64,000 nucleotides of DNA, taken from assembly GCF_016903815.1 (NCBI RefSeq), contig NZ_CP069973.1, one strand, 5' to 3'. The DNA comes from Escherichia coli (GTDB lineage Bacteria > Pseudomonadota > Gammaproteobacteria > Enterobacterales > Enterobacteriaceae). Every line of letters begins with the position of its first letter. Within the stretch, counting starts at the first letter, position 1. The translations under genes were made by a program, and so were the position numbers. This document shows positions 1,596 to 19,212 of the stretch, one piece after another. Under the pieces are notes generated by a model. The model searched no databases, was not told the DNA's origin, and saw nothing but the letters and a program-made list of their open reading frames with translations.

Positions 1596-1606
1596 AGGGC
1601 CTCCGG

Positions 1607-2698: not shown

Positions 2699-2722
2699 AT
2701 TAAGATCCCTCCAGTATAAGGA

Positions 2723-3037
2723 TCATTTATTTCCCAGTGATTTTTCGACCTTTTCAAGAAATTGAACGGGCGATTTAATGACGATCTCTGTCTTTACTCG
2801 CACAATGCGTTTATTGGTAAAACGTTCTTCTCCTTTTATTTTCACATCCACAGCAAGAATCACGACGTCAGCAGCAGAGATCTCTGCCGCCTGTAATTCG
2901 TTTTCTGTACCAATGGTTCCCTGGGTTTCAACTTTAATGGTGTGGCCCAGTGCTTTTGCCCCTTTAATTAACTTTTCACGAGCAATATAGGTGTGAGCAA
3001 TACCCGCCGTGCAGGCGGCAACACAGACAATATTCAT
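2723..3037 (-). CDS. PTS fructose-type EIIB (104 aa)
   Basis: N-terminal MNIVCVAACTAGIAHT with the phospho-Cys motif of fructose-like IIB domains. Confidence 0.8.
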   Translation of the reverse strand: MNIVCVAACTAGIAHTYIAREKLIKGAKALGHTIKVETQGTIGTENELQAAEISAADVVILAVDVKIKGEERFTNKRIVRVKTEIVIKSPVQFLEKVEKSLGNK

Positions 3038-3054
3038 GATATACTCCCTGTTAT

Positions 3055-3525
3055 TTAGTAGACATCGGATTGTGCATACTGACTAAAGAGATCAATGATT
3101 TTTTGCGGGCTCGTCTCAACCAGCAATTGCGCTATGATGTCATCATCTGCAAGCGCGCCCGCGACCTGGGAAAGTAAACGGATATGAGTGGTATTTTGAT
3201 CTTCAAGACGTACCGCAAATAAAATAATACAGCGTACGCTACTGCCATCCAGTGTTTCCCAGGGAATATCCTGCCGGGTACGCCCGATAGCCAGCGTGGT
3301 ATTAATTACCGCAGAAGATTTACCATGCGGGATCGCAATATGATTTTCAAAACCAGTCGAGCCTTCCGCTTCGCGCTGCCAGACATCTTTAATAAAGGTT
3401 TCCCGACAATCGATCGCACCATCTTTTTTGAGAAGATTAGTTAATTCTTCAATCGCCTCCGCTTTATTCGTCGCTTGCATATCTAAAATAACGCGATTCG
3501 TATTCAGGATTTTTGTTATGTCCAT
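3055..3525 (-). CDS. PTS EIIA, fructose/mannitol/PtsN type (156 aa)
   Basis: Size and conserved His-containing region (HIAIPHGK) typical of EIIA-Fru/Ntr family. Confidence 0.75.
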   Translation of the reverse strand: MDITKILNTNRVILDMQATNKAEAIEELTNLLKKDGAIDCRETFIKDVWQREAEGSTGFENHIAIPHGKSSAVINTTLAIGRTRQDIPWETLDGSSVRCIILFAVRLEDQNTTHIRLLSQVAGALADDDIIAQLLVETSPQKIIDLFSQYAQSDVY

Positions 3526-3551
3526 TCGTCATACCTCATAAAATTCTGACA

Positions 3552-5105
3552 TTAAATTTCAACGACCCGAGATGTCGCATGATGTAATTTTTCCGTAATC
3601 ACCATTTCAGTGACTCGCTTAATATCGGCATCATTAAAAAAAGCGGTAACATAAGCGACCGGCATAGTGACTGTAGGCAAATTAATGGTCGAAATAATCA
3701 GTTCGATATTGTCAGGCAAAACCTGTGATAAATTCGCTGCTGAAATAACATCAACAATCGTCCATTCAGGAAATGCTCGCAGAATACGGCTTTTCAGTAG
3801 ATGCGAAGTTCCGATTCCGGTTGAACAGACCAGTAATACACGTTTACGGGCAATTTGCCGCTCCATCGCAGCCTGAAAATGAACGGTCAGGTAACCTACT
3901 TCATCCTCGCTCACTGCATTCTCACCCCAGGTTTTAAATACCTGATTCACCACATATTGCGTCAACCGCCAGACATCCGCTAATTCTGCTTTAATATCTT
4001 CCAGCAATGGATTACGGATATGAATGCGATAATTTAGTCGGTTAATCAGCGGCTTAATATGAACCAACAAGCCATCATATAATGCGCTGTCTTCACTAAA
4101 ATCGCAGTCCACGATGTCACTGAATACCGTAATTAAACGCCAGGTAATCAGACGCGCTTCATTGCTGGCCTGCATATGTGAAATAATGCTAACATCTTTT
4201 TGTCCATCAATCGCCACACCTGATGAAATGATATATTGATAAATAAACCAGACTTCATCATCGGGCAATGTATGTGCAATTCGTTGTTCTATCTTATGAA
4301 TCATCTGACTGGCAACATTAAAGATATTTTCATCATATTGCCTGGTTTGATCTTCTTCTCTGGATAACGCATTCCCGTGCGTGTTGCGATACATCATAAT
4401 AAGGATGTGAGTAAAAATGTTAACGTAATAAGGCTCTCCCAAAGACCAACTTAATTCATTTTCCATATCCAGTAACAATGACTGGACAAATAACACCTCT
4501 TCTTCTCCAAAATAATGGACTAATGCTTTATAACTTCCGGGATCCAGACGTGAATACACGACACCTTGCGGCTCATTATGGTTAATAATGCCGTTAATCA
4601 GTAATGCCATTGCCTGTCGGACTTGCCCTTCACTACCTTCAATATGCGTACCACTTGGGCTGCGGATCAATGATAACCCCAACGGCGCAAGCCAGGACTC
4701 AATCACTCTCAGGTCATTAACAATAGAGGCTCCACTGATAAAATAGCGCTCTGACAATTTACTGATCGACGTTTCATTCGGTGTTTCACTTAATAACTGC
4801 GACGCTATTTTAACGCGCCTGGCATTATTCATTACACCATCAATCTCTTCACATTCTGCTCCCAACAAATGATCAAGATGCAGCAAATCAGTAATATTCT
4901 TCGAGTCTAACATCACACCTGCGCCAGCACGCTTCTCAACGGTTATTCGCCATTGTTCCAGCCATTGCTCAAGTAAACGTAAATCACGTTGAATGGTTTT
5001 TTCCGAAACATTTAAATAGCCGGCAATCGTAACAATAGTCGTATATTCCCTTCGTGGTAAAAGGAATCGTAATAATCTGTTTTGTCGCGAGGTAATCATT
5101 TGCAT
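3552..5105 (-). CDS. PRD-containing PTS operon transcriptional regulator (MgA/MtlR/LicR-like, 517 aa)
   Basis: N-terminal HTH region, central PRD-like region and a C-terminal EIIB-Gat-like motif (VLLVCSTGIGTSHLL); first gene of the minus-strand PTS/aldolase operon; matches the regulator of the frz-type operon described in extraintestinal E. coli (recalled, not searched). Confidence 0.75.
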   Translation of the reverse strand: MQMITSRQNRLLRFLLPRREYTTIVTIAGYLNVSEKTIQRDLRLLEQWLEQWRITVEKRAGAGVMLDSKNITDLLHLDHLLGAECEEIDGVMNNARRVKIASQLLSETPNETSISKLSERYFISGASIVNDLRVIESWLAPLGLSLIRSPSGTHIEGSEGQVRQAMALLINGIINHNEPQGVVYSRLDPGSYKALVHYFGEEEVLFVQSLLLDMENELSWSLGEPYYVNIFTHILIMMYRNTHGNALSREEDQTRQYDENIFNVASQMIHKIEQRIAHTLPDDEVWFIYQYIISSGVAIDGQKDVSIISHMQASNEARLITWRLITVFSDIVDCDFSEDSALYDGLLVHIKPLINRLNYRIHIRNPLLEDIKAELADVWRLTQYVVNQVFKTWGENAVSEDEVGYLTVHFQAAMERQIARKRVLLVCSTGIGTSHLLKSRILRAFPEWTIVDVISAANLSQVLPDNIELIISTINLPTVTMPVAYVTAFFNDADIKRVTEMVITEKLHHATSRVVEI

Positions 5106-5399: not shown

Positions 5400-7718
5400 T
5401 TACAACGTAATTGTCAGCGCATTCCCTTGAGGAGTCACCACCAGTCCCTGCTCACTTTCAGCCTGCGAACCACCTTGCAGACCATTTACTTTCACAATAT
5501 TGCGCAAGCACAGTGTCCAGTTCTTCGCCTCGCCCGCACCAGTCACAGTAATCGTGTTGCCAGTACGCGCCGCTTTCAGGGTGAAAAGAACGGAACCGTC
5601 AGCAGCGGGCACTTCACAGATGGCTTCATGCCCGTCTTGTAGATTAAAGAGCTGGAATGCCGTGCCTTCGTGCCACGCGTAATCGGGACGTTGCTCGTTG
5701 TTGCCCAGCGCCAGTAGGGTGTTATCACGCACATAAACGGGCAGACTCAGGAAGCTGTGCTGCTGTTTATGCCAGCGACTACCATCGAGTTCATCGTTGT
5801 GCCACAGGTGTGTCCAGCGACCTTCAGGCAAGTAGAACTGCACATCGCCCGCTTCAGTGAACACAGGCGCAACCATCACGTTGTCGCCTAACATGTATTG
5901 ACGGTCAAGGTAATCACAAGCCGGATCGTCCGGAAACTCCATCATCATGGCCCGCATCATCGGCGTACCCCGCGCGTTCGCACGAGCAGCTTCACGATAC
6001 AGATAAGGCATCATGCGGCATTTCAGTTGCGTGAAGAAGCGCACCACATCACAGGACTCATCATCGTAGGCCCACGGCACACGATAAGATTTGCTGCCAT
6101 GTAAACGGCTATGGCTGGAGAGCAAACCAAACGCGCACCAGCGTTTGTAAACGTGCGCCGGAGCGGTATTCTCAAAGCCGCCGATATCGTGGCTCCAGAA
6201 GCCAAAACCTGAAAGGCCAATAGACAAACCACCGCGCAGGCTTTCCGCCATTGATTCGTAGTTAGCGTAACAGTCGCCACCCCAGTGTACCGGGAATTTC
6301 TGCGCACCAACGGAGGCAGAGCGAGCAAACAAGACGGCTTCTTCCTCGCCAACGGTTTCCTTGAGCACGTTCCACACCAGTTCGTTGTAGATGTACGCAT
6401 AATGGTTATGCATTTTCTGCGGATCGGAACCGTCAAACCATTGAACATCGGTTGGAATACGTTCGCCAAAGTCGGTCTTAAAGCAATCAACGCCCATCGC
6501 GACCAGACCTTTCAGTTTGTCGGCGTACCATTTGCAGGTATCCGGATTGGTAAAGTCATAAATCGCCAGACCTGGCTGCCATTTATCCCACTGCCATAAC
6601 GAACCGTCCGGGTGTTTGAGTAAATAGCCTTTCTCTTGTAACTCTTTAAAGACAGGGGATTTTTGCCCGATATAGGGGTTAATCCAGACGCAGATTTTTA
6701 GCCCTTTCGCTTTCAGGCGGCGGATCATCCCTTCCGGGTCCGGGAAAGTCAGCGGGTCCCACTCAAAATCGCACCACTGGAAGGCTTTCATCCAGAAACA
6801 GTCAAAGTGGAAAACATGCAGTGGCAGATTGCGTTCCGCCATACCATCGATAAAGCTGTTTACCGTCGCTTCGTCGTAGTTGGTGGTAAATGAAGTGGTT
6901 AGCCACAGGCCGAAGGACCACGCGGGCGGCAGCGCCGGACGACCAGTAAAACGGGTATAACGATCAAGTACCGCTTTTGGCGTCGGGCCGTCGATAACAA
7001 AGTATTCGAGATATTCACTCTCAACGCTGAACTGCACTTTGGAGACTTTCTCCGATCCCACTTCAAAAGAGACGCATTGAGGATGATTGACCAGTACCCC
7101 ATAACCACGGTTAGTCATATAGAACGGAATATTTTTATACGCCTGTTCAGTACTTGTGCCGCCGTCCCGGTTCCAGGTCTCTACCGTCTGGCCATTGCGC
7201 ACCAGCGCAGTAAAGCGCTCTCCCAGACCGTAAACTGTTTCGCCAACGCCAAGATCCAGCCGCTCAAACATATAATTTCGTTGATTATTCGTGTCCTGCA
7301 CGTAGCCATTATTTTTCACCTGACTACCGGTAATACGTTCGCCGTTACGCAGAAAATCCAGTGACCAGAACTCACCTTTGCTGACACGCGCACTTAAGTT
7401 GCCACTTTTAAACTCAGCGTAACGTTCTGTGTTTTCGATTGTGACCTTCACGTCCTGCAAAATATTGAGCGGGTAATGAGGACCGTTATTCAGCGCCCCC
7501 TGAAAATGCTCAATCCGTACACCGACAATACCTTCCTGTGGGGAGAAAAAGCGCAGCGTAAATAAAGGCGTATCAAGCTGCCAGGTACGTTCACGCACAT
7601 CACGAGGGGCAGCATAGACCACCATTTCATTACCCTGCTCTTCAACCTCGAACACCTGAAGCGGGTGAATCAAATTGAGGCCAGGTTGAATCAACCAGTT
7701 TCCGTCGCTAATTTTCAT
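5400..7718 (-). CDS. yicI: alpha-xylosidase, glycoside hydrolase family 31 (772 aa)
   Basis: 772-aa GH31 protein; position next to yicJ and selC matches the E. coli core order (recalled). Confidence 0.9.
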
Positions 7719-7727
7719 TGCCGTTCC

Positions 7728-9110
7728 TTAGTTCTGCACTTTTTGAGAGGTGAATTGTTGCTGGCAACGGCGTTTGCCCTGAGCCAGCTGTTCCATAACG
7801 GTTTTCAGATTGTGCGTCGTGAGTGAGTAGTAGCGTTTAGCGATAATCGCGCTCAGCAAATAACAGATCGCCGGAACAATCGTGAATAGCGCGATAATGA
7901 TGCTAATCGTGGCGCTGTTCTGCGCTTTTTCTGCCGCATCATATCCGCCATAAGCCAGCATCCAGCCGATAAGAGCGCCGCCGAAGGCCAACCCCAGTTT
8001 GAGCACAAACAGCGTGCCAGCAAAACTGATCCCGGTCAGGCGTTTACCATTGCACCACTCGCCGTAGTCGACGGTATCGGACATCATTACCCACTGGATA
8101 GGTGTCACCAGTTGATGCAACACACCAATCACGAAGATGAAGACAAACATAGTGATGCTGGCCTGCATAGGAACAAAGAACATCGCGAGGCTAATCACTG
8201 CCAGCAGGGCGTTCGTCCACCAGAAGATAGTGACTTTACATTTCCAGTCGGTCAGCGGTTTCGCCAGTGCGGAACCAATCAGGTTACCCACGCAATAAGT
8301 GGTAAGAAAAGCGACAAACACTTCCGGCGTACCCAAAATCCATGTGACGTAATACATCATCGCCCCGCCGCGTACGCATACCGCCAGAATATTGAAAATG
8401 GTCAGGAAACCGACAATACGCCACTGGTCGTTTTGCCAGATATCACGTAAATCTTCCCGCATAGACGTCGTTGTAGGTGGTGCTTCAACGCGTTCTTTAG
8501 TGGTGAAGAAACAAAATGCCAGCATCATAAATGCCACCACGGAAAGGACCGCGATACCGCCCTGGAAACCGAGTGGTTTATTATCACCACCAATTAAATT
8601 AACCAGCGGCATCATCAGCACAGTAGAGAGCATGCCTCCCGCGGTCGCCAGCACAAAACGCCAGGATTGCAGCGAGATACGCTGAGTCGGGTCATTGGTG
8701 ATTACACCACCCAATGCGCAGTAAGGGATATTAACGATGGTATAAAGTAAGGTAAGTAGGGTGTAAGTAATTGCTGCATAAATCATTTTTCCGTTCATAC
8801 TGAGATCTGGCGTGCTATAGGCCAGTACACAGACGATCCCAAATGGCAGTGCGCCAAACAGTACCCACGGACGAAATTTACCCCAGCGAGAGCGCGTTCG
8901 ATCGGCCAACAACCCCATGCAAGGATCGGAAATCGCATCCAGTGCACGAGCGACCAAAAACATGGTTCCGACAAATCCGGCAGGAATGCCAAAAATATCG
9001 GTATAAAAGAACATCATATATAACATTACGTTATCGAAAATAATGTGGCTGGCGGCGTCTCCCATGCCATAACCAATTTTCTCTTTAACGGACAACACTT
9101 CACTCTTCAT
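7728..9110 (-). CDS. yicJ: GPH-family sugar:cation symporter
   Basis: 12-TM transporter; start placed at internal ATG (MKSEVLSVKEK...) rather than the longer 479-aa ORF beginning at 9167. Confidence 0.85.
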   Translation of the reverse strand: MKSEVLSVKEKIGYGMGDAASHIIFDNVMLYMMFFYTDIFGIPAGFVGTMFLVARALDAISDPCMGLLADRTRSRWGKFRPWVLFGALPFGIVCVLAYSTPDLSMNGKMIYAAITYTLLTLLYTIVNIPYCALGGVITNDPTQRISLQSWRFVLATAGGMLSTVLMMPLVNLIGGDNKPLGFQGGIAVLSVVAFMMLAFCFFTTKERVEAPPTTTSMREDLRDIWQNDQWRIVGFLTIFNILAVCVRGGAMMYYVTWILGTPEVFVAFLTTYCVGNLIGSALAKPLTDWKCKVTIFWWTNALLAVISLAMFFVPMQASITMFVFIFVIGVLHQLVTPIQWVMMSDTVDYGEWCNGKRLTGISFAGTLFVLKLGLAFGGALIGWMLAYGGYDAAEKAQNSATISIIIALFTIVPAICYLLSAIIAKRYYSLTTHNLKTVMEQLAQGKRRCQQQFTSQKVQN

Positions 9111-9402: not shown

Positions 9403-9497
9403 GGAAGATCGTCGTCTCCGGTGAGGCGGCTGGACTTCAAATCCAGTTGGGGCCGCCAGCGGTCCCGGGCAGGTTCGACTCCTGTGATCTTCCGCCA
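9403..9497 (+). tRNA. selC: tRNA-Sec (selenocysteine tRNA), 95 nt ending in CCA
   Basis: Sequence GGAAGATCGTCGTCTCCGGTGAGGCGGCTGGACTTCAAATCCAGTTGG...GTTCGACTCCTGTGATCTTCCGCCA read directly; UCA anticodon loop (CTTCAAATC); long variable arm. Confidence 0.95.
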
Positions 9498-9796
9498 GTT
9501 TACCTCTTCTGAACTCTCCCAATGTCAATAAATCTCTTCTAATCCCTTGTATATCAGTATTTATTTGTATCCAGAGGTCAACCTACTTCACCCCGTATCA
9601 AGTTTCTTTTGGGGGTACTTTAGGGGGTGTTATTTCCTATTGAAATACCAGCACCCCCATAATAGGAAAAATATGATATATAACAACGGCTTTTAACAAC
9701 ATCTTTGTTATACAAGGGGTGTATTGGGGGTATCAGGTTAGTTACTGGCAGAAATCCCCCTCAGGAACATGAATTCATCAAAAGCCGGAGGATGTC

Positions 9797-10981
9797 ATGG
9801 CATTAACCGATATCAAAGTGAAAACCGCAAAACCCAAAGACAAACCCTATAAGCTTGCTGATGGCGGCGGTATGTATCTACTGATTAACACTAATGGTTC
9901 TAAATACTGGCGCATGAAGTACCGCTTTGCTGGTAAAGAAAAGATGCTTTCTATTGGCGTATACCCCGATGTAACGCTAGCCGATGCTCGCGAGAAACGC
10001 AGTGAAGCCAGGAAACTCCTCGCTGCTGGAGGCGATCCAGGGGAGGCAAAAAAGGAAGAAAAAATCGCGCAGCAAATGAGTCTGCAAAATACGTTCGAGG
10101 CTATTGCTCGCGAATGGCACCAGTCAAAAGCCGATCGGTGGTCATTACGCTATCGTGATGAAATCATTGATACCTTTGAAAAAGACATTTTTCCCTACAT
10201 TGGCAAGCGCCCTATTGCCGAAATCAAACCAATGGAGTTACTGGAAGCACTGCGTAAAATGGAAAAACGTGGAGCTCTGGAGAAAATGCGCAAGGTCCGC
10301 CAGCGCTGTGGTGAGGTGTTCCGCTATGCAATTGTTACTGGCCGGGCAGACTATAACCCAGCCCCCGATCTTGCCAGTGCTTTAGCTACACCGAAAAAAG
10401 TACATTTTCCCTTTCTTACTGCTAATGAACTTCCCCACTTCCTCAACGATCTGGCGGGTTATACCGGAAGTATAATCACTAAGACAGCTACTCAGATCAT
10501 TATGTTAACCGGCGTACGAACACAAGAACTGCGTTTTGCACGCTGGGAAGATATCGATTTTGAGACAAAATTGTGGGAGATCCCGGCAGAAGTAATGAAG
10601 ATGAAGCGACCTCATATTGTGCCGCTCTCTGAGCAGGTCATTATGCTATTTAAGCAGCTTGAACCAATCTCAAAACATCATCCCCTAGTCTTTATCGGTA
10701 GAAATGATCCCCGCAAACCAATTAGTAAGGAAAGCATTAACCAAGTAATTGAATTACTTGGATATAAGGGAAGACTCACAGGGCATGGTTTCAGACACAC
10801 CATGAGTACAATTCTGCATGAACAAGGCTTTAATTCCGCCTGGATTGAAATGCAGTTAGCTCATGTGGATAAAAATTCCATCAGGGGTACCTATAATCAT
10901 GCCCTGTATCTCGATGGCCGCCGTGAAATGATGCAATGGTACGCTGATTACATTGATTCACTCTCCAGCCGGGAAAGTTAA
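9797..10981 (+). CDS. P4-family tyrosine integrase (394 aa), island integrase at selC
   Basis: N-terminus MALTDIKVKTAKPKDKPYKLADGGGMYLLI... typical of P4-type integrases; C-terminal catalytic region with HGFRHT and Y; strong RBS GGAGG; 300 bp downstream of selC. Confidence 0.85.
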   Translation: MALTDIKVKTAKPKDKPYKLADGGGMYLLINTNGSKYWRMKYRFAGKEKMLSIGVYPDVTLADAREKRSEARKLLAAGGDPGEAKKEEKIAQQMSLQNTFEAIAREWHQSKADRWSLRYRDEIIDTFEKDIFPYIGKRPIAEIKPMELLEALRKMEKRGALEKMRKVRQRCGEVFRYAIVTGRADYNPAPDLASALATPKKVHFPFLTANELPHFLNDLAGYTGSIITKTATQIIMLTGVRTQELRFARWEDIDFETKLWEIPAEVMKMKRPHIVPLSEQVIMLFKQLEPISKHHPLVFIGRNDPRKPISKESINQVIELLGYKGRLTGHGFRHTMSTILHEQGFNSAWIEMQLAHVDKNSIRGTYNHALYLDGRREMMQWYADYIDSLSSRES

Positions 10982-11391: not shown

Positions 11392-12435
11392 ATGAACGAT
11401 AGATTATGCTTTGAAGTGCACGATAACCAGGGTTATTTCGTATTTCCGGATACCTGGTTTGGCCCATTGCTGGGGGAGTTTGAAGAAGTGCTTGATGCAT
11501 ACGACGCTGATGAAATCAGCGAGACGAGTTACATCAACAAACTCCGACGCCTTGCTCAACGGGAGCCGGACTTTATTGATATACACGCTCATCTGGCATA
11601 TGCATTTCTGGAACAGAATGCCCCGCGTAAGGCACTGAACGCCGCTCTTAAAGGACTGGCGGCAGGTAATCGTATCATCCCGGAAAGTTTCTGTGGTGAA
11701 ATAATCTGGATGCATCCCGAAAACCGGCCTTATCTGCGCGCGCTTTATGCAGCAATTCTCGCAAATGTGCACTTACAGCGCCATCAGGATGCGGTTATGC
11801 TCACTGATAAAATACTGGCATACAATCCTGAAGATAATCAGGGGGCTCGCTGGTTGTTGGGTTCAGAGCTGTTACGCACCGGCGATCATGAGCGAGCCTT
11901 CAGTGTACTGAAAGAGCATGCTGATGAATTTTCACCTTACTGGTATGAACTCGGTCTCCTGCATTTTCTGAACGGGGAACATGTTAAGGCCGCCACAGCT
12001 TTTCGCCATGGCTTTGCCACAAACACTTACATCGCAGAAATGCTGTGCGGAAATCTGCATCCATTTCCACTTGCTGTGTGGCATGACTTCTCCGGCTCTC
12101 TGGATACGGCAGAAGATTACTATGCAACATACTCACCATTATGGGGACAATATCCGGAAGCATTGCTGTTTGTAAACTGGCTCTATAATCATTCCTCTGT
12201 GCTGCATGAACGGGCAGAAATCATTAAATGCGCCGAAATGCTGATGCAGGAAGATGATTTCGAAATATGCGAAAGTATTTTAAGACAGCAGGAGAAGTTG
12301 CGTGAAAGAATTGATGAGACGCTTTCTGAAAAAATTGTACAGAAATGCAGAAATATGAATGGTGAATATGTCTGGCCCTGGATATTGCCGTTTTCAGCGG
12401 CAGGCATGAAACATACTGGCATACAGTATCAGTAG
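11392..12435 (+). CDS. hypothetical protein (347 aa), island cargo of unknown function
   Basis: Long ORF after a 410-bp AT-rich spacer downstream of the integrase; predicted mainly helical, no recognised motif. Confidence 0.55.
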   Translation: MNDRLCFEVHDNQGYFVFPDTWFGPLLGEFEEVLDAYDADEISETSYINKLRRLAQREPDFIDIHAHLAYAFLEQNAPRKALNAALKGLAAGNRIIPESFCGEIIWMHPENRPYLRALYAAILANVHLQRHQDAVMLTDKILAYNPEDNQGARWLLGSELLRTGDHERAFSVLKEHADEFSPYWYELGLLHFLNGEHVKAATAFRHGFATNTYIAEMLCGNLHPFPLAVWHDFSGSLDTAEDYYATYSPLWGQYPEALLFVNWLYNHSSVLHERAEIIKCAEMLMQEDDFEICESILRQQEKLRERIDETLSEKIVQKCRNMNGEYVWPWILPFSAAGMKHTGIQYQ

Positions 12436-12832
12436 ATATTGCATTAGTGTATCCTGCACACAAGTAATAATTTATCCACCAATAATAACACTGTTAATGT
12501 CCCCTTCCCCTGGTTGTCAGCCAGGGGTTATCTTCTGAATATTTCTTTTGAAAAGGATAACACAGTAAATTATTTTTATGAATTATCCCATGGACTCATT
12601 AACACCCTTTCATAATGCTTTATTGTCAAACACGTTATGGCTGACATCAAAAAAAACCGGATTTCCTCTGCCAGCGGGTAATCACCTTCCCGGTGTTTTC
12701 GGTTGGTCTGGTTACTCCTGTCTGGTTATTAGCAAGATAATTGCTATAAACAGTGGAAAACTCATCGTACATAATCTGGTGATGAACATTACGCTTATTT
12801 TCCCTTGACCGGAAGAATCAGAGGCTGTGGTT

Positions 12833-13903
12833 TCAGTCATACAGTCCATCTCCTTTAATCGGAGTTGGCTCTTTCCCTGGCCGTATACGGCGAACAGATT
12901 CTCGTATTACCAGTTTCCCATACAAAAGTAATGCACCAACAGTTGCATCAGGACGTACAAGTCTTTGTTGTAACATATGTACCGCTTCAGTACCCAGTTC
13001 ATCGCGAGGTACATGTACTGCCGTAAGTGGCACATCTTCTATTGCAGCCAGATTAAACCCATCAATACTCATTACGGACACATCTTGTGGCACTCGTATA
13101 TTACGTTTTTTTAAAGCGTTAATTATACCTGCAGCAATGAAGTCCCCACTTGCCAAAAAAGCAGTCGGTAGCATACTTTTCTCTGTCATATCCAGCCATG
13201 CTCCGACTTTTTCTTCGGCTTCTTTGGCGCTGAAACTATTAATAGTGAGTAAATCTCTGTCATCTTTAAAGTTCTGATTCTGTCTCTCCCATGCTTCTTT
13301 AATTCCGGCAAGTCGCAGTTCCATTGTGTATCGACGTAAACACATAATGTTCATTACTCTGCGATGCCCCATTTCAAACAGAAAGTGAGACGCAAAAGCA
13401 CCAATGTTTTTGTGATCTGGAGCAACTGTGGGAAGACGCATACGTCGATCATGGCAGTTAATCATTACGCACGGCTTAGAAAAATCTGCTGCAAGATCAT
13501 GTATATGAGGATCATCAATACCAAGCAATATTGCAGCCTGTGTTTCTGCCTCATTCATGCGCGCCAGGAATTTTGAAGGTGTACTATCGAACTCATCAAG
13601 GGCACAGTAACGCAACCGAACCTCATAATGCGATAATGCCTTGCTGATGCTTTGGATTACGCGGAAATAAAAAATGTCTGTTCGCTCATCAAAAGCCCGT
13701 TGAGGAGCAAAAATGACAAGGTTGTTTAACAACATACGGCCGGATGCCATTCCATCCATAACCCCAAGCTCTCTGGCACACGCCAATACTTTCTCGCGGG
13801 CACGATAACTGGTATTAGCTTTACCCGCTAAAACCCGTGACACGGTGCTGGATGAAAGGCCTGTTCGCATGGCAATATCAGCAATCTTTAGTTTTTTTTC
13901 CAT
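12833..13903 (-). CDS. LacI-family transcriptional regulator
   Basis: N-terminal HTH (KIADIAMRTGLSSSTVSRVLAG) plus periplasmic-binding-like sugar-binding core; start placed at first ATG (the track ORF begins at an upstream TTG, 13927). Confidence 0.8.
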   Translation of the reverse strand: MEKKLKIADIAMRTGLSSSTVSRVLAGKANTSYRAREKVLACARELGVMDGMASGRMLLNNLVIFAPQRAFDERTDIFYFRVIQSISKALSHYEVRLRYCALDEFDSTPSKFLARMNEAETQAAILLGIDDPHIHDLAADFSKPCVMINCHDRRMRLPTVAPDHKNIGAFASHFLFEMGHRRVMNIMCLRRYTMELRLAGIKEAWERQNQNFKDDRDLLTINSFSAKEAEEKVGAWLDMTEKSMLPTAFLASGDFIAAGIINALKKRNIRVPQDVSVMSIDGFNLAAIEDVPLTAVHVPRDELGTEAVHMLQQRLVRPDATVGALLLYGKLVIRESVRRIRPGKEPTPIKGDGLYD

Positions 13904-14164
13904 ATTGTGATCTATCTCTAATTTCAAAATGAAAAAATTCTCATGGGATGGAATAGCCTGACTGCAAGGACTTCTGACTATTTTTAGAATTTATATGAAC
14001 TACTTATGAAAAAACGTGCACAATACCAACTTTTTTTCATCGCCCCCCTCTTTTATTGTGAATGAGTAGTTCCGGTTTAAGTATTAAGCCGAAAGGTAAA
14101 GTGGGATGTGGCAACCCCGAGCTGCGTTGTCGCTCGATCATTTATTACATCCGGTGGGGTGATT

Positions 14165-15466
14165 ATGAGTCAGGATATAAATAATAATATAGCTGTCAGC
14201 AAACACCGTCGAATAATAAGACAACTACGGTGGTGGATGTTAATCCTTTTTCTAATGGGTGTCACTGTCAATTATATTACCAGAAACTCATTAGGTATTT
14301 TGGCACCAGAGTTAAAAGACAGCCTTGGAATTACAACTGAACAATACTCCTGGATTGTTGGTGGATTTCAGCTTGCATATACCCTTTTTCAGCCACTTTG
14401 TGGATGGCTAATTGATGTTATTGGGCTCAAGATTGGATTTATGATTTGTGCTTCATTATGGGGAATTGCTTGTCTTCTGCATGCAGGAGCAGGAAGCTGG
14501 ATACAGCTTGCGTTGCTTCGTTTTTTCATGGGAGGTGCTGAGGCTTCTGCGACACCTGCAAATGCAAAAATTATAGGTGAGTGGTTTCCAAAATCTGAAC
14601 GTCCTGTTGCTGCTGGCTGGGCGGGTGTCGGTTTTTCTATCGGTGCAATGCTTGCACCACCAATTATTTACTTTGCACATGCGTCATTTGGTTGGCAGGG
14701 TGCATTTATGTTTACAGGTGCACTTGCAATTCTTTGGGTTTTCCTTTGGTGGGCGTGTTATAACACACCAGAAGAGCACCCAAACTTAAGTAAAAATGAG
14801 CTCAACTTTATCCGACAGGATAACGAAGCTCCTCCGGTAAAAATGCCTTTTCTGACCGCGTTAAAAACAGTTAGTAAAAATAAACGCTTTTATGGAATCG
14901 CTATCCCTGCATTTATGGCAGAGCCAGCATGGGCTGTAATGAGCTTTTGGGTGCCATTATATCTTGCAAAAGCATATGGCATGGACCTTAAACAAATAGC
15001 TCTGTTTGCATGGTTACCATTTCTTTGCGCTGATTTAGGAAGTATTGCCAGCGGATATCTGACAAAACTCTATACCCGTCTGTTTGGGTTAAGCAGAGTA
15101 AATTCTGTTATTGCGTCCTCTGTAAGCGGAGCATTTCTAATGGTTTCGCTTGCTGTGATTGCTTTTATCGACAATCCATATATTGCTATTGTACTTATCT
15201 CCATTGGTGGTTTTGGTCATCAGATAATTTCCTGCATGTTAAGTGCCCTGGTCGTTGAATCTTTTGATAAGGGGCAGATGGCCACTGTTAATGGAATGCG
15301 TGGTTCAGCCGCATGGATTGCCAGCTTTTTGTTCTCACTGATTATTGGCGTTACTGCTGACAAAATAGGCTTTAACCCGCTATTTATCGCCATGGGATTT
15401 TTTGATCTTATTGGTGCTTTTTTTCTGGTTACTTTTATTGCAGAACGTCGCAAAAAACGCACCTGA
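14165..15466 (+). CDS. MFS transporter (ACS/ExuT-like sugar acid/oligosaccharide permease)
   Basis: 12-TM MFS; start placed at ATG preceded by GGTGGGGTGA RBS (MSQDINNN...); the track ORF extends upstream to 14108. Confidence 0.8.
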   Translation: MSQDINNNIAVSKHRRIIRQLRWWMLILFLMGVTVNYITRNSLGILAPELKDSLGITTEQYSWIVGGFQLAYTLFQPLCGWLIDVIGLKIGFMICASLWGIACLLHAGAGSWIQLALLRFFMGGAEASATPANAKIIGEWFPKSERPVAAGWAGVGFSIGAMLAPPIIYFAHASFGWQGAFMFTGALAILWVFLWWACYNTPEEHPNLSKNELNFIRQDNEAPPVKMPFLTALKTVSKNKRFYGIAIPAFMAEPAWAVMSFWVPLYLAKAYGMDLKQIALFAWLPFLCADLGSIASGYLTKLYTRLFGLSRVNSVIASSVSGAFLMVSLAVIAFIDNPYIAIVLISIGGFGHQIISCMLSALVVESFDKGQMATVNGMRGSAAWIASFLFSLIIGVTADKIGFNPLFIAMGFFDLIGAFFLVTFIAERRKKRT

Positions 15467-15480
15467 GGGAGTATGTGGAG

Positions 15481-17862
15481 ATGAAAACATTAAAAAACTG
15501 GAAACTACAAAATCAGTCAGCCCATCATATAGAGCTATTAGTTGATGGTCAGCATTCTCTTTGCCTGTATATACTCGAAGAAAATATGTTCCGGGTTCTA
15601 TTAAAACGGAAGGGGGTTTTGTCGCTGGACCGAACCTGGAGCATTGCTCCGGAAAAGGATGTCCCGTGGGAAGGGCGTCATCGCGAAGATATTAGCGGTT
15701 TTTCACTGCCGACCTGGAACATGGAGCAGAATGATGAATTACTGACAATCACGACCAGTTCATTACGCGTAATTATTCACAAGCCTTTATGGCTTGAATG
15801 GCATTATAAGGATAATGCTGGTCAGTGGCAGGAACTTGTTAATGATCGCCCTACCAGTGCTTATCTGATAAACGCTCATGGTGATGGTGTTGCACACTAT
15901 CAAAGTCGACGTAATGACGAGCGTTTTTATGGACTTGGTGATAAATCCGGGGATCTGCAACGCACAGGAAAACGCTATGAAATGCGGAACCTGGACGCAA
16001 TGGGATATAATGCAGTAAGTACAGACCCTCTTTATAAACATATTCCATTTACAATTACTCACCGTAGCGATATTAGCTTTGGATTATTTTATGATAACCT
16101 CAGCAATAGTTGGCTGGATTTAGGTAATGAAATAGATAATTATCATACAACTTACCGCCGTTGGCAGGCTGAGGCGGGAGATATTGATTATTATCTTTTC
16201 ACTGGCAGATGTGTACTTGATATCACCAAAGCCTTTGTTCGTTTGACGGGGAAAACACTCTTCGGTCCAAAATGGAGTCTTGGGTACAGCGGTTCCACGA
16301 TGCACTATACAGATGCACCGGATGCTCAGAATCAATTGATGCAGTTTATTCGTCTTTGTAAGGAACATGCTATTCCATGTGATTCTTTCCAGCTATCTTC
16401 TGGTTATACTTCTATTAATGGTAAACGCTACGTATTCAACTGGAATTACGACAAAGTTCCACACCCTAAAATGATGAGTCAGGAGTTTCATAATGCAGGG
16501 ATACACCTGGCCGCTAATATAAAACCATGTTTATTGCAGGATCATCCTCGCTATAACGAAGTAGCAGAACAAGAGCTCTTTATTCGTGACTCTGAATACA
16601 ACGTCCCGGAACGCTCCAGCTTCTGGGATGATGAGGGTTCTCATCTGGACTTTACGAACCCACAAACAGTCGCATGGTGGCAGGAAGGTGTAACCACACA
16701 ACTACTTGAAATGGGAATTGATTCCACCTGGAATGATAACAATGAGTTTGAAGTATGGGATGGGGAAGCGCGCTGTCATGGTTTTGGCAAAGAAATCGCC
16801 ATTAAACACATTCGGCCAGTAATGCCTCTTTTAATGTGCAGAGCATCTATGGAAGCACAGCAAAAATTTGCACCGAACAAACGACCATATTTGATTTCCC
16901 GCTCTGGATGCGCCGGATTGCAGCGTTATGTTCAGACATGGAGTGGGGACAACCGAACTAACTGGGATACCCTTCGATACAACACCCGCATGGGGCTGGG
17001 AATGAGCCTCTCAGGATTGTATAACATTGGTCATGATGTCGGTGGTTTTTCTGGTGATAAGCCTGATCCAGAATTATTTGTTCGTTGGGTTCAGAACGGT
17101 GTTATGCACCCCCGATTTACGATCCACTCGTGGAATGATGATCATACTGTCAATGAACCATGGATGTATCCGGAAGTAACACCCGCGATTCGTAGTGCAA
17201 TTGAGTTACGTTATCGTCTTATGCCTTATTTATATACATTATTGTGGCAGGCACATGCCGATGATGAGCCAATATTACGTCCAACCTTCCTTGATCATGA
17301 GCACGATGTTCAGACATTTGAAGAATGTGATGATTTTATGCTGGGACGCGATATTCTGGTTGCAAGTGTCGTGGAAGCAGGGCAACGACAACGACGAGTA
17401 TGGTTACCCGACAACAAAACAGGATGGTACGACTTTTACAATGGCGAATGGTTCTGTGGTGGTCAATGGATAACAATCGACGCGCCACTGGAAAAACTAC
17501 CATTATTAGTACGTGCAGGTGCAGGTATTCCTCTTAGTGAACGTATAACATACGTGAGTGAAGCGGAAGATAATCATCGTAAATTGAAATTATTCCCAAT
17601 TAAAGGAACGGGTAAATCCACCGGACTTCTGTTTGAAGATGATGGCGAAACTTGGGGATATACTGAAGGTAATGCTCTGTGGCTTGAATGGGAGCTGGAC
17701 TGCACAGCCACTACAATTGAGTTAAGAATAAACACTCATGGAGATTATCGCCCTGCATGGGAAACATTGAAAGTGATAATTCCTCAGGGAGAAAGTCGTC
17801 AACTACTGATTAACGGCATTGAGGCTTATGAATGGAATATGAACCTATCCTGTAATGATTAA
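15481..17862 (+). CDS. glycoside hydrolase family 31 (alpha-glucosidase/alpha-xylosidase-like)
   Basis: GH31 signatures including WNDNNE and GDN; start at ATG after GAGGGAG RBS; second GH31 enzyme in the window besides yicI. Confidence 0.85.
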   Translation: MKTLKNWKLQNQSAHHIELLVDGQHSLCLYILEENMFRVLLKRKGVLSLDRTWSIAPEKDVPWEGRHREDISGFSLPTWNMEQNDELLTITTSSLRVIIHKPLWLEWHYKDNAGQWQELVNDRPTSAYLINAHGDGVAHYQSRRNDERFYGLGDKSGDLQRTGKRYEMRNLDAMGYNAVSTDPLYKHIPFTITHRSDISFGLFYDNLSNSWLDLGNEIDNYHTTYRRWQAEAGDIDYYLFTGRCVLDITKAFVRLTGKTLFGPKWSLGYSGSTMHYTDAPDAQNQLMQFIRLCKEHAIPCDSFQLSSGYTSINGKRYVFNWNYDKVPHPKMMSQEFHNAGIHLAANIKPCLLQDHPRYNEVAEQELFIRDSEYNVPERSSFWDDEGSHLDFTNPQTVAWWQEGVTTQLLEMGIDSTWNDNNEFEVWDGEARCHGFGKEIAIKHIRPVMPLLMCRASMEAQQKFAPNKRPYLISRSGCAGLQRYVQTWSGDNRTNWDTLRYNTRMGLGMSLSGLYNIGHDVGGFSGDKPDPELFVRWVQNGVMHPRFTIHSWNDDHTVNEPWMYPEVTPAIRSAIELRYRLMPYLYTLLWQAHADDEPILRPTFLDHEHDVQTFEECDDFMLGRDILVASVVEAGQRQRRVWLPDNKTGWYDFYNGEWFCGGQWITIDAPLEKLPLLVRAGAGIPLSERITYVSEAEDNHRKLKLFPIKGTGKSTGLLFEDDGETWGYTEGNALWLEWELDCTATTIELRINTHGDYRPAWETLKVIIPQGESRQLLINGIEAYEWNMNLSCND

Positions 17863-18459
17863 TTTATTGTAGAGGGTAAATCATGGCCAAATAAAGGCAC
17901 TGTAAGAGTAAAACTTATAGTGCCTTTATATACAAGCCAGATTATAACGCCATGCAATGAAACGCCCCCATGCATACGTAGATTAACTATCTCTTACCAT
18001 TTTACATATCCGAAAGAATATGTTTTAACAGAAAGGTAAAACATGAGCGATAATAAAAAAGAGCACTTCCACAATGTAATAATAAGATGGGTTATTATTT
18101 TCGCCACTATTGAATACATATATTTATTTATAAAGTTTCTCTAAAGTCTTAATACCCATCCCATCAAAAAACAATGCGGGGTTGTTAAAATAACAACATA
18201 ACACTGTTTTCATGAGAATAGTAAAGCGTTTATTCAAAACCGTTTATAGCAACCCCATAAACCCAACATAGCAATTGAGTTTAAAAAGGAGATTTCATTG
18301 TCCCCTATCAATTAAACTTCATGTTTTTTAGTTTGTTTATAAAACAACATCATATCTCCTATAAAATACTCAGCAGTATTAAACCACCTTATCTTTAACC
18401 AAACTATTTATTCCGCAAGCCCACACTTATGGATATTTACCGTTGGTAATGACTCCAAC

Positions 18460-18963
18460 TTACTGATAGTGTTTTATGTTCAGATAATGCCCGATGACCT
18501 TGTCATGCAGCTCCACCGATTTTGAGAACGACAGTGACTTCCGTCCCAGCCTTGCCAGATGTTGTCTCAGATTCAGATTATGTCGCTCAATGCGCTGAGT
18601 GTAACGCTTGCTGATAACGTGCAGCTTTCCCTTCAGGCGTGATTCATACAGCGGCCAGCCATCCGTCATCCATACCACGACCTCAAAGGCCGACAGCAGG
18701 CTCAGAAGACGCTCCAGTGTGGCCAGAGTGCGTTCACCGAAGACGTGCGCCACAACCGTCCTCCGTATCCTGTCATACGCGTAAAACAGCCAGCGCTGAC
18801 GTGATTTAGCACCGACGTAGCCCCACTGTTCGTCCATTTCAGCGCAGACAATCACATCACTGCCCGGTTGTATGCGCGAGGTTACCGACTGCGGCCTGAG
18901 TTTTTTAAGTGACGTAAAACCGTGTTGAGGCCAACGCCCATAATGCGTGCACTGGCGCGACAT
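18460..18963 (-). CDS. insB: IS1 InsB reading frame (expressed as InsAB by frameshift)
   Basis: ORF-track 167-aa frame overlapping insA inside IS1. Confidence 0.8.
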
Positions 18964-19157
18964 CCGACGCCATTCATGGCCATATCAATGATTTTCTGGT
19001 GCGTACCGGGCTGAGAGGCGGTGTAAGTGAACTGTAGTTGCCATGTTTTACGGCAATGAGAGCAGAGATAGCGCTGATGTCCGGCAGTGCTTTTGCCGTT
19101 ACGCACCACGCCTTCAGTAGCGGAGCAGGAAGGACATCTGATGGAAATGGAAGCCAC
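18882..19157 (-). CDS. insA: IS1 InsA (91 aa)
   Basis: ORF-track protein [40 protein letters not shown]... inside the IS1 copy. Confidence 0.85.
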
Positions 19158-19212
19158 GCAAGCACCTTAAAATCACCATCATACACTAAATCAGTAAGTT
19201 GGCAGCATTACC

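What the first reader, a model, noticed from the sequence alone, without database searches (positions are those of the whole stretch)
12833..17862. Island cargo forms a self-contained sugar-utilisation module next to a paralogous core module
The island carries a divergently arranged LacI regulator, an MFS permease and a GH31 glycosidase. Within 10 kb on the other side of selC the core has yicI (GH31 alpha-xylosidase) plus yicJ (GPH symporter). Two GH31 enzymes with dedicated transporters flanking one tRNA suggests acquisition of a new oligosaccharide specificity, perhaps for a host-derived glycan.
Basis: inference. Interest (0 to 1): 0.4.

Follow-up and report, generated by a model that had tools for sequence, protein, structure and literature searches.

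The report
Known selC-island sugar module, likely glucuronide-specific
The three genes are real and intact, but they are the already described aec-35/36/37 carbohydrate cluster of E. coli selC islands. Comparison with other bacteria suggests they import and split a glucuronic-acid-containing sugar, not an ordinary glucoside, which has not been tested.

Summary
Downstream of selC (9403-9497) lie a P4-type integrase, a TPR protein, a LacI-family regulator (12833-13903, -), an MFS permease (14165-15466, +) and a GH31 glycosidase (15481-17862, +), all intact. yicJ and yicI lie on the other side of selC.

The window is E. coli. The trio is present in 329 of 5426 complete genomes, including BL21. 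By gene order, selC position and island repeats it matches aec-35/36/37 of island AGI-3 (Chouikha 2006), so the cluster is already known.

It is not a duplicate of yicIJ. The two GH31 enzymes are 25% identical and the transporters belong to different families. In other Enterobacterales the trio sits elsewhere, so the adjacency comes from integration at selC.

New here:
- The permease is ExuT-like (43% identity to the hexuronate transporter).
- The GH31 belongs to a large clade with no solved structure, in which the canonical glycone-binding Asp-Ile is Ser-Ser and WNDMNE is WNDNNE.
- In Erwiniaceae and in three further contexts, two of them 45-46% identical relatives, the enzyme sits beside glucuronate catabolic genes or a second ExuT-family or TRAP carboxylate transporter.
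- Two conserved palindromic operators lie at 13929-13944 and 14006-14021.

Best reading: a repressor-controlled module for uptake and hydrolysis of an alpha-linked glucuronide. The substrate is inferred, not shown.

The parts
12833..13903 (-). LacI-family repressor (aec-35 type), 356 aa, transcribed divergently from the permease
   Evidence: Pfam LacI HTH, Peripla_BP_1 and Peripla_BP_3 match. It is below the cut-off of every NCBIfam equivalog, so its specificity is not assigned. It is conserved divergently from the MFS gene in 71 of 87 species loci at 49-79% identity.
13929..13944 (.). Predicted operator O1, ATGAAAAAATTCTCAT, 26-41 bp upstream of the repressor's ATG
   Evidence: A 16-bp palindrome with consensus ATGAAAAAATTTTCAT occupies the same offset in 72 of 72 LacI-type loci from many genera. 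It is the only match with at most one mismatch in the 64-kb window. Binding was not tested.
14006..14021 (.). Predicted operator O2, ATGAAAAAACGTGCAC, 77 bp from O1 and about 145 bp upstream of the permease ATG
   Evidence: A second palindrome (consensus ATGAAAATTTTTGCAA/C) occupies a fixed offset in 69 of 72 loci. It overlaps inverted repeat I1. The E. coli variant is identical to that of Kluyvera and Pseudocitrobacter.
14165..15466 (+). ExuT-like MFS permease of the anion:cation symporter family (aec-36 type), 433 aa
   Evidence: It is 43% identical over 414 residues to E. coli ExuT, E=5e-120. TIGR00893 scores 266 bits. The best solved structure is DgoT, and the carboxylate-binding Arg47 and the proton-site Glu133 equivalents are conserved. 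One source names it 'ACS family hexuronate transporter-like'.
15481..17862 (+). Cytoplasmic GH31 glycosidase (aec-37 type), 793 aa. Nucleophile Asp419 lies in WNDNNE and acid/base Asp490 in SGDN. The -1 subsite is non-canonical: Ser306-Ser307 and Asn420.
   Evidence: Pfam GH31 domains match. The AlphaFold2 model has pLDDT 96.9, and its best PDB match is FjDex31A with TM 0.86 at only 26% identity. Motif comparison with YicI, YihQ, glucosidase II and Dex31A is, and clade-wide conservation. A GGGAG Shine-Dalgarno sequence lies 9 nt upstream, and the gene starts 14 nt after the permease stop. There is no hydrophobic N-terminal signal sequence.
17893..17927 (+). Possible transcription terminator hairpin after the GH31 gene (AAAGGCACT...AGTGCCTTT)
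   Evidence: Read directly from the sequence. The loop is long, the T-run is weak, and the terminator scan did not call it. Inference only.
9403..9497 (+). selC (tRNA-Sec), the integration site of the island
   Evidence: ARAGORN. The 16-bp selC 3' repeat TTCGACTCCTGTGATC (9474-9489) and the TTTGGGGGTACTTTAGGGGGT repeat (9608-9628) reported for AGI-3-type islands are both present, once each.
9797..10981 (+). P4-type tyrosine integrase of the island
   Evidence: Pfam Arm-DNA-bind_3, Phage_int_M and Phage_integrase match. The annotation in strains 7/2 and BL21 agrees.
18445..19212 (-). IS1 copy that truncates the island and most of setC, forming the present right-hand border
   Evidence: Identity with the BL21 island stops at 18444, where the IS1 end GGTAATGACTCCAACTTACTG begins. 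An IS1 transposase and a setC remnant are annotated in strain 7/2.
5400..9110 (-). Core yicJ-yicI operon: GPH symporter 7728-9110 and GH31 alpha-xylosidase 5400-7718. This is the 'neighbouring module' of the finding and is not part of the island.
   Evidence: YicI is 25% identical to the island GH31.

Best explanation
The segment is a horizontally acquired, LacI-type-repressed operon for using an alpha-linked hexuronide. It is the aec-35/36/37 cluster of E. coli selC islands.

Proposed mechanism:
1. The repressor binds two palindromic operators in the divergent promoter region and is released by an unknown inducer.
2. The ExuT-like anion:proton symporter imports a small carboxylated glycoside.
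3. The cytoplasmic GH31 enzyme is a retaining hydrolase. The side of its glycone pocket that faces O4/C6 of the sugar is rebuilt. It cleaves the glycoside and releases D-glucuronate plus a second product.
4. Glucuronate enters the core UxaC-UxuB-UxuA-KdgK-Eda pathway.

The most specific version is that glucuronate, or 4-O-methyl-glucuronate, is the glycone, so the enzyme is a GH31 alpha-glucuronidase.

Shown here: gene integrity, family assignments, active-site substitutions, conserved operators and synteny. Inferred: the substrate, repression and induction, and the direction of transport.
For: 1. Transporter. It is 43% identical to ExuT along its full length. The DgoT carboxylate-binding Arg and the proton-site Glu are conserved.

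2. Synteny in Enterobacterales. The orthologous MFS-GH31 pair (77-80% identity for both proteins) replaces LacI by uxuA-(uxuB)-uxaC plus an ExuR-like GntR regulator in 11 loci, from Pantoea, Erwinia and one isolate labelled Klebsiella sp.. All 11 intergenic regions carry one or two TTGGTnnACCAA palindromes. These match the ExuR/UxuR box as I know it from the literature.

3. Limnobaculum has the GH31 gene next to uxuA, GntR, uxuB, uxaC and a TRAP transporter instead of the MFS.

4. Distant relatives. A 45%-identical relative lies between dctM and dctP inside a cluster of uxuB-like, uxaC, ManD-type dehydratase, KDG kinase and KDPG aldolase genes. A 46%-identical relative is paired with another ExuT-family MFS.

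5. Active site. The residues that by my recollection of the maltase-glucoamylase structure bind O2/O3 and do the catalysis are kept: Arg474, Asp490, His549, Trp417, Asp419, Trp487 and Phe523. Those on the O4/C6 side are replaced: the Asp-Ile of YicI, YihQ, glucosidase II and Dex31A becomes Ser306-Ser307, Met after the nucleophile becomes Asn420, and SRW/SRY becomes STM. Arg316-x-x-Phe-Asn-Trp has the spacing of the sulfonate-binding Arg301 motif of sulfoquinovosidase. The signature is conserved in about 130 of the 150 best 50%-identity clusters.

6. Published phenotype, from my memory of the abstract of Chouikha et al. 2006, which I could not read here: deleting aec-35 to aec-37 altered assimilation of seven carbohydrates and slowed growth on galacturonate and trehalose.
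Against: - No biochemical datum exists for any member of this GH31 clade, and no paper on a GH31 alpha-glucuronidase was found.
- In 71 of 87 loci, including E. coli, the trio has no catabolic neighbours. The glucuronate link therefore rests on a minority of contexts.
- The closest solved structures are a dextranase and glucosidase II, both acting on neutral glucosides.
- The carboxylate-contacting residues are not identified. Two of the three sulfoquinovosidase anion-binding residues are not conserved: Trp304 is Phe here and Tyr508 is Phe.
- The remembered phenotype names galacturonate and trehalose, not glucuronate.
- Whether an ExuT-type carrier can move a disaccharide is unknown.
Confidence: 0.55

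Rival explanations
1. It is an ordinary alpha-glucosidase module. The permease takes up a neutral alpha-glucoside (isomalto-, nigero- or kojibiose-type, or a trehalose analogue), and the GH31 releases glucose, as the database name 'alpha-glucosidase' implies.
For: Best sequence and fold matches are alpha-glucosidase II and a GH31 dextranase. NCBIfam MalA is the top model. Sources name the protein alpha-glucosidase. The remembered trehalose phenotype of the deletion mutant fits.
Against: The MalA score is 314 bits against a cut-off of 800. The canonical Asp that every aligned gluco- or xylo-specific GH31 keeps is Ser here, along with three further -1 subsite changes. The transporter is of the organic-anion family with the carboxylate-binding Arg kept. 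Linkage to uxu/uxaC genes and to TRAP carboxylate transporters recurs.
Confidence: 0.15
2. Glucuronate is the aglycone, not the glycone. The enzyme removes an alpha-linked neutral sugar (xylose, glucose, mannose or a hexosamine) from a glucuronate residue, for example Xyl-alpha-1,3-GlcA or a Hex-alpha-1,4-GlcA fragment of plant glycosyl-inositol-phosphoceramides. The transporter recognises the uronate end.
For: The transporter and synteny evidence is the same as for the main explanation. GH31 already contains alpha-xylosidases and alpha-N-acetylgalactosaminidases. The altered O4/C6 side of the pocket could also fit a glycone other than glucose.
Against: An aglycone role does not explain why the glycone pocket loses the acidic residue. 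The Arg316 spacing resembles the C6-anion-binding motif of sulfoquinovosidase. There is no direct evidence either way.
Confidence: 0.15
3. It is a galacturonide module. The enzyme is an alpha-galacturonidase acting on pectin fragments such as digalacturonate or GalA-alpha-1,2-Rha, and the permease imports them.
For: Loss of the O4-binding Asp would suit an axial O4. The transporter is ExuT-like, and ExuT carries both glucuronate and galacturonate (established knowledge). The remembered galacturonate growth defect of the deletion mutant fits. The family is common in the pectinolytic genera Pectobacterium and Dickeya.
Against: The linked catabolic genes are those of the glucuronate branch: uxuA or ManD-type mannonate dehydratase, and uxuB-like. 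No altronate dehydratase (uxaA) lies next to the enzyme in any locus examined.
Confidence: 0.1
4. The genes are silent or decaying island cargo with no present function in E. coli.
For: IS1 has truncated the island 580 bp downstream. One strain lost the permease and the hydrolase through IS1. Only 6% of complete genomes carry the cluster. The consensus scan calls no strong sigma-70 promoter in the intergenic region.
Against: All three frames are intact and identical across hundreds of genomes of diverse origin. The catalytic residues, both operators and the ribosome-binding sites are conserved. From memory, a deletion phenotype was published. The cluster is used as an APEC marker.
Confidence: 0.04

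Closest known systems
aec-35/aec-36/aec-37 cluster of genomic island AGI-3 (E. coli BEN2908; Chouikha et al., J Bacteriol 2006, 188:977)
   Same: A selC-inserted island with the order integrase, then a LacI regulator, an MFS transporter and a glycosidase. The island repeats reported for AGI-3-type islands are present. [quoted passage not shown]
   Different: The window's island is a 9-kb remnant cut by IS1 and lacks the other AGI-3 modules, such as the fos locus. Sequence identity with GenBank AY857617 could not be computed because the record is not in the available collections. The biochemical substrate was, as far as I know, never defined.
E. coli YicI/YicJ (GH31 alpha-xylosidase plus GPH symporter)
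   Same: A GH31 fold with the same catalytic Asp pair, paired with a secondary transporter, lying 300 bp from selC.
   Different: 25% identity. The NCBIfam alpha-xylosidase model scores 232 bits against a cut-off of 606. The pocket residues differ (FDCFW versus QLSSGY). The transporter family differs, and yicIJ has no LacI regulator.
E. coli YihQ sulfoquinovosidase system (GH31 acting on a C6-anionic glucoside)
   Same: A GH31 enzyme dedicated to a sugar with an anionic C6 substituent, feeding a dedicated catabolic route. The Arg-x-x-aromatic-Asn-Trp spacing is shared.
   Different: The phmmer E-value is only 1.5e-31. Trp304 and Tyr508 are both Phe here. YihQ keeps the canonical Asp289, whereas this enzyme has Ser. 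The transporters are GPH, not ExuT-like.
ExuT and the ExuR/UxuR hexuronate regulon of Enterobacterales
   Same: The permease is an ExuT homologue. In Erwiniaceae the pair sits beside uxuA-uxuB-uxaC-exuR-like genes behind ExuR-type boxes.
   Different: In E. coli and most Enterobacterales the pair is controlled by its own LacI-type regulator with different operators. Identity to ExuT is 43%, so it is a distinct orthologous group.
Flavobacterium johnsoniae FjDex31A and ER alpha-glucosidase II (closest solved structures)
   Same: The overall four-domain GH31 architecture: TM 0.82-0.86 and E=4e-82 to 5.5e-79.
   Different: About 26% identity. They have the canonical DI and DM(G/N)E motifs and act on neutral alpha-glucans or glycans.

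Membership tests
Glycoside hydrolase family 31 | N-terminal beta-sandwich, (beta/alpha)8 catalytic barrel and two C-terminal beta-sandwich domains | tested here: met
   Pfam PF13802, PF01055, PF21365 and PF17137 all score above their cut-offs. The AlphaFold2 model has pLDDT 96.9, with TM 0.86 to 6jr6 and 0.83 to glucosidase II.
Glycoside hydrolase family 31 | Catalytic nucleophile Asp in the W-x-D-x-x-E motif and acid/base Asp in the G-D-N motif | tested here: met
   Asp419 (TWNDNNE) and Asp490 (WSGDN) align with the YicI, YihQ, Dex31A and glucosidase II catalytic residues and are invariant in 74 sequences.
Canonical GH31 alpha-glucosidases (EC 3.2.1.20 type; MalA, glucosidase II, MGAM) | Glycone-pocket Asp-Ile after beta-3 (D327-I328 of N-terminal MGAM by my recollection), Met after the nucleophile, and the SR(W/Y) motif | tested here: not met
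   Ser306-Ser307, Asn420 and Ser-Thr-Met occupy these positions. The NCBIfam MalA equivalog scores 314 bits against a cut-off of 800.
YicI-type alpha-xylosidase | Score above the NCBIfam PRK10658 cut-off, and the FDCFW pocket motif | tested here: not met
   232 bits against a cut-off of 606. 25% identity to YicI. The motif is QLSSGY instead.
Sulfoquinovosidase (YihQ type) | The sulfonate-binding triad Arg301, Trp304 and Tyr508 | tested here: not met
   Arg316 is conserved at the same spacing, but the Trp304 and Tyr508 equivalents are both Phe. The NCBIfam PRK10426 model scores 139 bits against a cut-off of 553.
GH31 alpha-glucuronidase (hypothetical new specificity) | Hydrolysis of an alpha-D-glucuronide with release of glucuronate | not testable with these tools
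   Only indirect evidence: transporter type, pocket changes and synteny with uxu/uxaC/TRAP genes.
MFS anion:cation symporter family (ExuT/DgoT type) | Twelve-helix MFS with the TM1 Arg that binds the substrate carboxylate and the TM4 Glu proton site. The residue roles are from my recollection of the DgoT structure paper. | tested here: met
   The alignment to DgoT 6e9n gives YITR for YVDR and EA for EA. It is 43% identical to ExuT. TIGR00893 scores 266 bits, below its subfamily cut-off of 395, so it is a relative and not a named orthologue.
LacI/GalR repressor family | N-terminal HTH, a periplasmic-binding-protein-like effector domain, and a palindromic operator near the regulated promoter | tested here: met
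   Pfam domains match. Two 16-bp palindromes are positionally conserved in 72 and 69 of 72 loci. Binding itself was not tested.
aec-35 to aec-37 locus of AGI-3 | Nucleotide identity with GenBank AY857617 | not testable with these tools
   The record and the original paper are not held. Identity is inferred from gene order, selC location, shared island repeats and secondary descriptions.
tRNA-inserted integrative genomic island | Integrase next to the tRNA, and a direct repeat of the tRNA 3' end at the far border | tested here: inconclusive
   The integrase lies 300 bp from selC. Only one copy of the 16-bp repeat is in the window, because IS1 has removed the distal part of the island and most of setC.

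The most novel reading that the evidence does not exclude
The island enzyme and its clade are the first GH31 alpha-glucuronidases. The clade comprises roughly 130 of the 150 best 50%-identity clusters and has relatives in at least 557 species genomes. In it the canonical glycone Asp is replaced (signature SSGY/WNDNNE) so that the pocket accepts a C6 carboxylate, possibly with a 4-O-methyl group. Together with an ExuT-like carrier this gives Enterobacterales, including E. coli B/BL21 and many ExPEC strains, a cytoplasmic route for alpha-glucuronides such as xylan-derived aldouronates or alpha-glucuronosyl-glycerol or -inositol. From memory, Enterobacter asburiae JDR-1 uses methylglucuronoxylose through an intracellular alpha-glucuronidase that was never identified; this clade could be that enzyme, and E. 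asburiae carries the trio (locus L019).
Probability: 0.35. Interest if true: 0.55.

Novelty: already known. Interest (0 to 1): 0.33.

Why it matters
As a genomic feature it is ordinary. It is a known accessory carbohydrate cluster on a selC island, and it is already used as an APEC marker.

What would matter is the biochemistry. The annotation 'alpha-glucosidase' is probably wrong for a very widespread enzyme clade. If the glucuronide reading holds, it would:
- add a new specificity to GH31;
- explain the reported fitness and virulence effect as access to an extra uronate source;
- provide an alpha-glucuronidase plus transporter pair useful for converting hemicellulose hydrolysates.

The identical genes are in BL21, so the hypothesis can be tested with standard laboratory strains.

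Tried and rejected
- The original paper (PubMed id, PMC id and DOI) is not held. Its content is cited from memory and from secondary sources.
- Searching for 'aec-35' and variants found only marker lists.
- Searches for a GH31 alpha-glucuronidase, for methylglucuronoxylose genes and for the GH31 subfamily paper found nothing relevant.
- Recent duplication of yicI is rejected: 25% identity.
- A functional link to the neighbouring ybiW-ybiY genes in Klebsiella and Kluyvera was considered (describes YbiW as acting on 1,5-anhydroglucitol-6-phosphate). It is rejected because Cronobacter, Buttiauxella and Cedecea have the trio directly after moeB without those genes, and Yersiniaceae have it between housekeeping genes.
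- An alpha-glucan-lyase-like chemistry was considered. It is rejected because the acid/base Asp490 is kept and the Ile position is Ser, not Asn.
- The promoter and terminator consensus scans gave nothing above chance in the intergenic region.
- A CRP-like TGTGA half-site near 14058 is not conserved between genera.
- The contexts of clade members P0151 and P0154 lie on short contigs and were uninformative.
- Clustering of flanking ORFs found no further conserved accessory enzyme.
- No donor could be named. The E. coli copy has the lowest G+C (43%) of the 88 orthologues, and the nearest proteins (Kluyvera, 85%) come from G+C-rich genomes.

Full report
**What is there**

The window is E. coli chromosome around selC. 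From left to right:
- a PTS-aldolase operon with a BglG-family regulator, 744-5105 (-);
- yicI, 5400-7718 (-), and yicJ, 7728-9110 (-);
- tRNA-Sec, 9403-9497;
- a P4-type integrase, 9797-10981;
- a TPR protein, 11392-12435;
- a LacI-family regulator, 12833-13903 (-);
- an MFS permease, 14165-15466 (+);
- a GH31 glycosidase, 15481-17862 (+);
- a small ykgR-like ORF, an IS1, a 90-bp remnant of setC, then the core genes yicL, nlpA and yicS.

The finding's coordinates run exactly from the regulator's stop codon to the hydrolase's stop codon. The three proteins are identical to RefSeq proteins of strain 7/2 and of BL21. Each was seen on at least 1000 contigs. They are full length against orthologues from 87 other species.

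**It is a known cluster**

A selC island with the order integrase, LacI regulator, MFS transporter and glycosidase is what Chouikha et al. (J Bacteriol 2006, 188:977) described as aec-35, aec-36 and aec-37 of island AGI-3 in avian strain BEN2908. I could not read that paper.

From my memory of its abstract:
- the cluster was found in 11.6% of the strains tested;
- it lay at selC in 97% of carriers;
- its deletion altered assimilation of seven carbohydrates;
- its deletion slowed growth on galacturonate and trehalose;
- its deletion attenuated virulence in chickens.

Held papers support the identification.
- The 16-bp selC repeat and the TTTGGGGGTACTTTAGGGGGT repeat reported for that island type are in the window at 9474-9489 and 9608-9628.
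- aec35-37 is scored in APEC marker panels.

Direct alignment with AY857617 was not possible.

In complete E. coli genomes the cluster occurs in 329 of 5426, including BL21 and, by a source name, strain B REL606. It lay at selC in every case I opened.

In this window the island is a 9-kb remnant. Identity with the BL21 island ends at 18444, where an IS1 starts. In another strain an IS1 has removed the permease and the hydrolase.

**Relation to yicIJ**

The island GH31 and YicI share 25% identity over 545 residues. The permeases belong to different families: MFS_1 of the anion:cation symporter type, versus GPH/MFS_2. This is not a duplication.

The same trio lies between ybiU or moeB and ybiT in Klebsiella, Kluyvera, Citrobacter, Enterobacter, Cronobacter and Buttiauxella. 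In Yersinia, Serratia and Rahnella it lies between der/bamB/hisS and xseA/guaBA. The two GH31 systems flank selC only because the island integrated there.

**What the proteins are**

The permease is 43% identical to the hexuronate transporter ExuT over its whole length. This is far closer than to any other named model. In the alignment to the D-galactonate transporter structure it keeps the TM1 Arg and the TM4 Glu. By my recollection of that structure's paper, these bind the substrate carboxylate and the coupling proton.

The hydrolase has all GH31 domains, a confident model (pLDDT 96.9) and the catalytic pair Asp419/Asp490. It has no N-terminal hydrophobic signal sequence, so it is probably cytoplasmic.

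Its nearest solved relatives, a Flavobacterium dextranase and ER glucosidase II, are only about 26% identical. It falls below the cut-offs of the MalA, YicI and YihQ models.

Aligned with YicI, YihQ, glucosidase II and the dextranase, it differs as follows:
- Arg474, His549, Trp417, Trp487 and Phe523 are kept;
- the Asp-Ile pair that all four comparators share (LDI, QDI, FDC, QDW) is Ser306-Ser307;
- the residue after the nucleophile (Met in the two glucosidases, Phe in YicI and YihQ) is Asn420;
- the SRW motif is STM.

By my recollection of the maltase-glucoamylase structure, the conserved residues contact O2/O3 of the glycone, and the replaced ones line its O4/C6 side.

Arg316-Tyr-Val-Phe-Asn-Trp has the same spacing as Arg301-Val-Met-Trp304-Asn-Trp of sulfoquinovosidase, where Arg301 binds the C6 sulfonate. 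The Trp304 and Tyr508 equivalents, however, are Phe.

The signature is not an E. coli oddity. In the 150 best 50%-identity clusters of a 1.8-billion-protein library, about 130 carry (F/M)xLSSGY or FHFGSGY together with WNDNNE, down to about 35% identity. The remaining ~20 show the canonical YLDIDY/WNDMNEP. At least 557 species genomes encode relatives matching YVFNWNY or TWNDNNE. No solved structure belongs to this clade.

**Genomic context gives the functional clue**

Among 87 species loci, the ExuT-like gene lies directly upstream of the GH31 gene in 83, and the LacI gene lies divergently in 71. The exceptions are informative.

- In eight Pantoea loci, two Erwinia loci and one isolate labelled Klebsiella sp., the orthologous pair has no LacI gene. 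It faces uxuA-(uxuB)-uxaC and an ExuR-like GntR/FCD regulator. The pair is 77-80% identical to the E. coli proteins but only about 42% identical to ExuT.
- All 11 of these intergenic regions contain one or two TTGGT(T/C)(A/G)ACCAA palindromes. These match the ExuR/UxuR box known from the literature.
- In Limnobaculum the GH31 gene lies beside uxuA, a GntR regulator, a TRAP transporter, uxuB and uxaC.
- A relative 45% identical, from a G+C-rich metagenomic contig, sits between dctM and dctP. That cluster also encodes UxaC, a UxuB-like dehydrogenase, a ManD-type dehydratase, a PfkB kinase and a KDPG-type aldolase, which together form a complete glucuronate-to-pyruvate route.
- Another relative, 46% identical, is paired with a different ExuT-family permease and a porin.
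- A 38% relative follows a GPH transporter and a carboxylesterase of the BD-FAE type.

The linked genes belong to the glucuronate branch (mannonate dehydratase). No altronate dehydratase was seen. I therefore infer that the enzyme's product is D-glucuronate. The rebuilt O4/C6 side of the pocket makes glucuronate, perhaps 4-O-methylated, the likelier glycone. A role as aglycone is not excluded.

**Regulation**

Across 72 LacI-type loci, two 16-bp palindromes occupy fixed positions 77 bp apart, with consensus ATGAAAAAATTTTCAT and ATGAAAATTTTTGCAA/C. The first is present in all 72 loci and the second in 69.

In the window they are O1, 13929-13944 (ATGAAAAAATTCTCAT), and O2, 14006-14021 (ATGAAAAAACGTGCAC). 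O1 lies 26-41 bp upstream of the repressor start. O2 lies about 145 bp upstream of the permease start. O1 is the only match with at most one mismatch in the 64 kb.

This arrangement suggests autoregulation plus repression of the permease-hydrolase operon. Promoters were not identifiable by consensus. Binding and the inducer are untested.

The permease and hydrolase genes are 14 nt apart, with a GGGAG ribosome-binding site before the second. This fits one transcript.

**Verdict**

The feature is real, intact and self-contained, but already described, and its position next to yicIJ is incidental. The evidence points to an alpha-linked glucuronide, not to a host glycan or a xylo- or gluco-oligosaccharide.

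My confidence in the broad reading (a glucuronate-yielding glycoside) is about 0.55. For the specific claim of a GH31 alpha-glucuronidase it is about 0.35. Nothing here is biochemical proof. The database name 'alpha-glucosidase' should be treated as unverified.

The identical genes are in BL21, so the decisive assays are simple.

Noticed in passing
window 744-5105 (-): An accessory operon lies between yicH and yicI: two class II aldolases, PTS fructose-type IIC/IIB/IIA components and a BglG-family regulator. It is absent from BL21. It looks like the 'frz' metabolic operon of ExPEC described by the same French group, which I recognise from memory; the reference is listed.
   Followed up: partly
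window 11392-12435 (+): A TPR protein lies directly after the island integrase. By position it corresponds to the shiA gene that a held paper says is shared between selC islands and Shigella SHI-2. It gives a weak, sub-threshold match to a type III secretion chaperone model.
   Followed up: partly
window 24724-25491: A second, inverted IS1 copy is 93% identical to the first. Relative to strain 7/2 it replaces about 5.3 kb carrying part of eipC, eipD, eilA and the 3' end of the air/eaeX adhesin gene. The remaining ORF, 25487-35851, encodes 3454 aa.
   Followed up: partly
window 12700-12836: The 137 bp just outside the regulator's stop codon occur in about 1300 further E. coli genomes that lack the cluster, often next to a phosphoethanolamine transferase gene. 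The module junction therefore lies within a few bases of the LacI stop codon.
   Followed up: no
window 18043-18144 (+): A 33-codon ORF annotated in RefSeq as a YkgR-like small membrane protein follows the hydrolase gene. It is kept in BL21 and other carriers. Its relation to the module is unknown.
   Followed up: no
window 12833-17862 compared with loci L002-L091: The E. coli copy of the hydrolase gene has the lowest G+C (43%) of the 88 orthologues, well below its flanks (49%) and its closest protein relatives. None of the sampled species is the direct donor.
   Followed up: partly
loci L002, L011, L013-L035 (Klebsiella, Kluyvera, Citrobacter, Enterobacter): In these genera the trio is inserted between ybiU and ybiT, next to ybiV-ybiW-ybiY. 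A held review describes YbiW as cleaving 1,5-anhydroglucitol-6-phosphate. I judged this coincidental, because other genera lack that neighbourhood.
   Followed up: partly
locus L095 283-5336 and locus L096: A 38%-identical member of the same GH31 clade lies in a three-gene operon with a GPH transporter and a BD-FAE-type carboxylesterase, near a dockerin protein. The contig has 44% G+C and looks like a Firmicute. This may hint at xylan-side-chain substrates.
   Followed up: no
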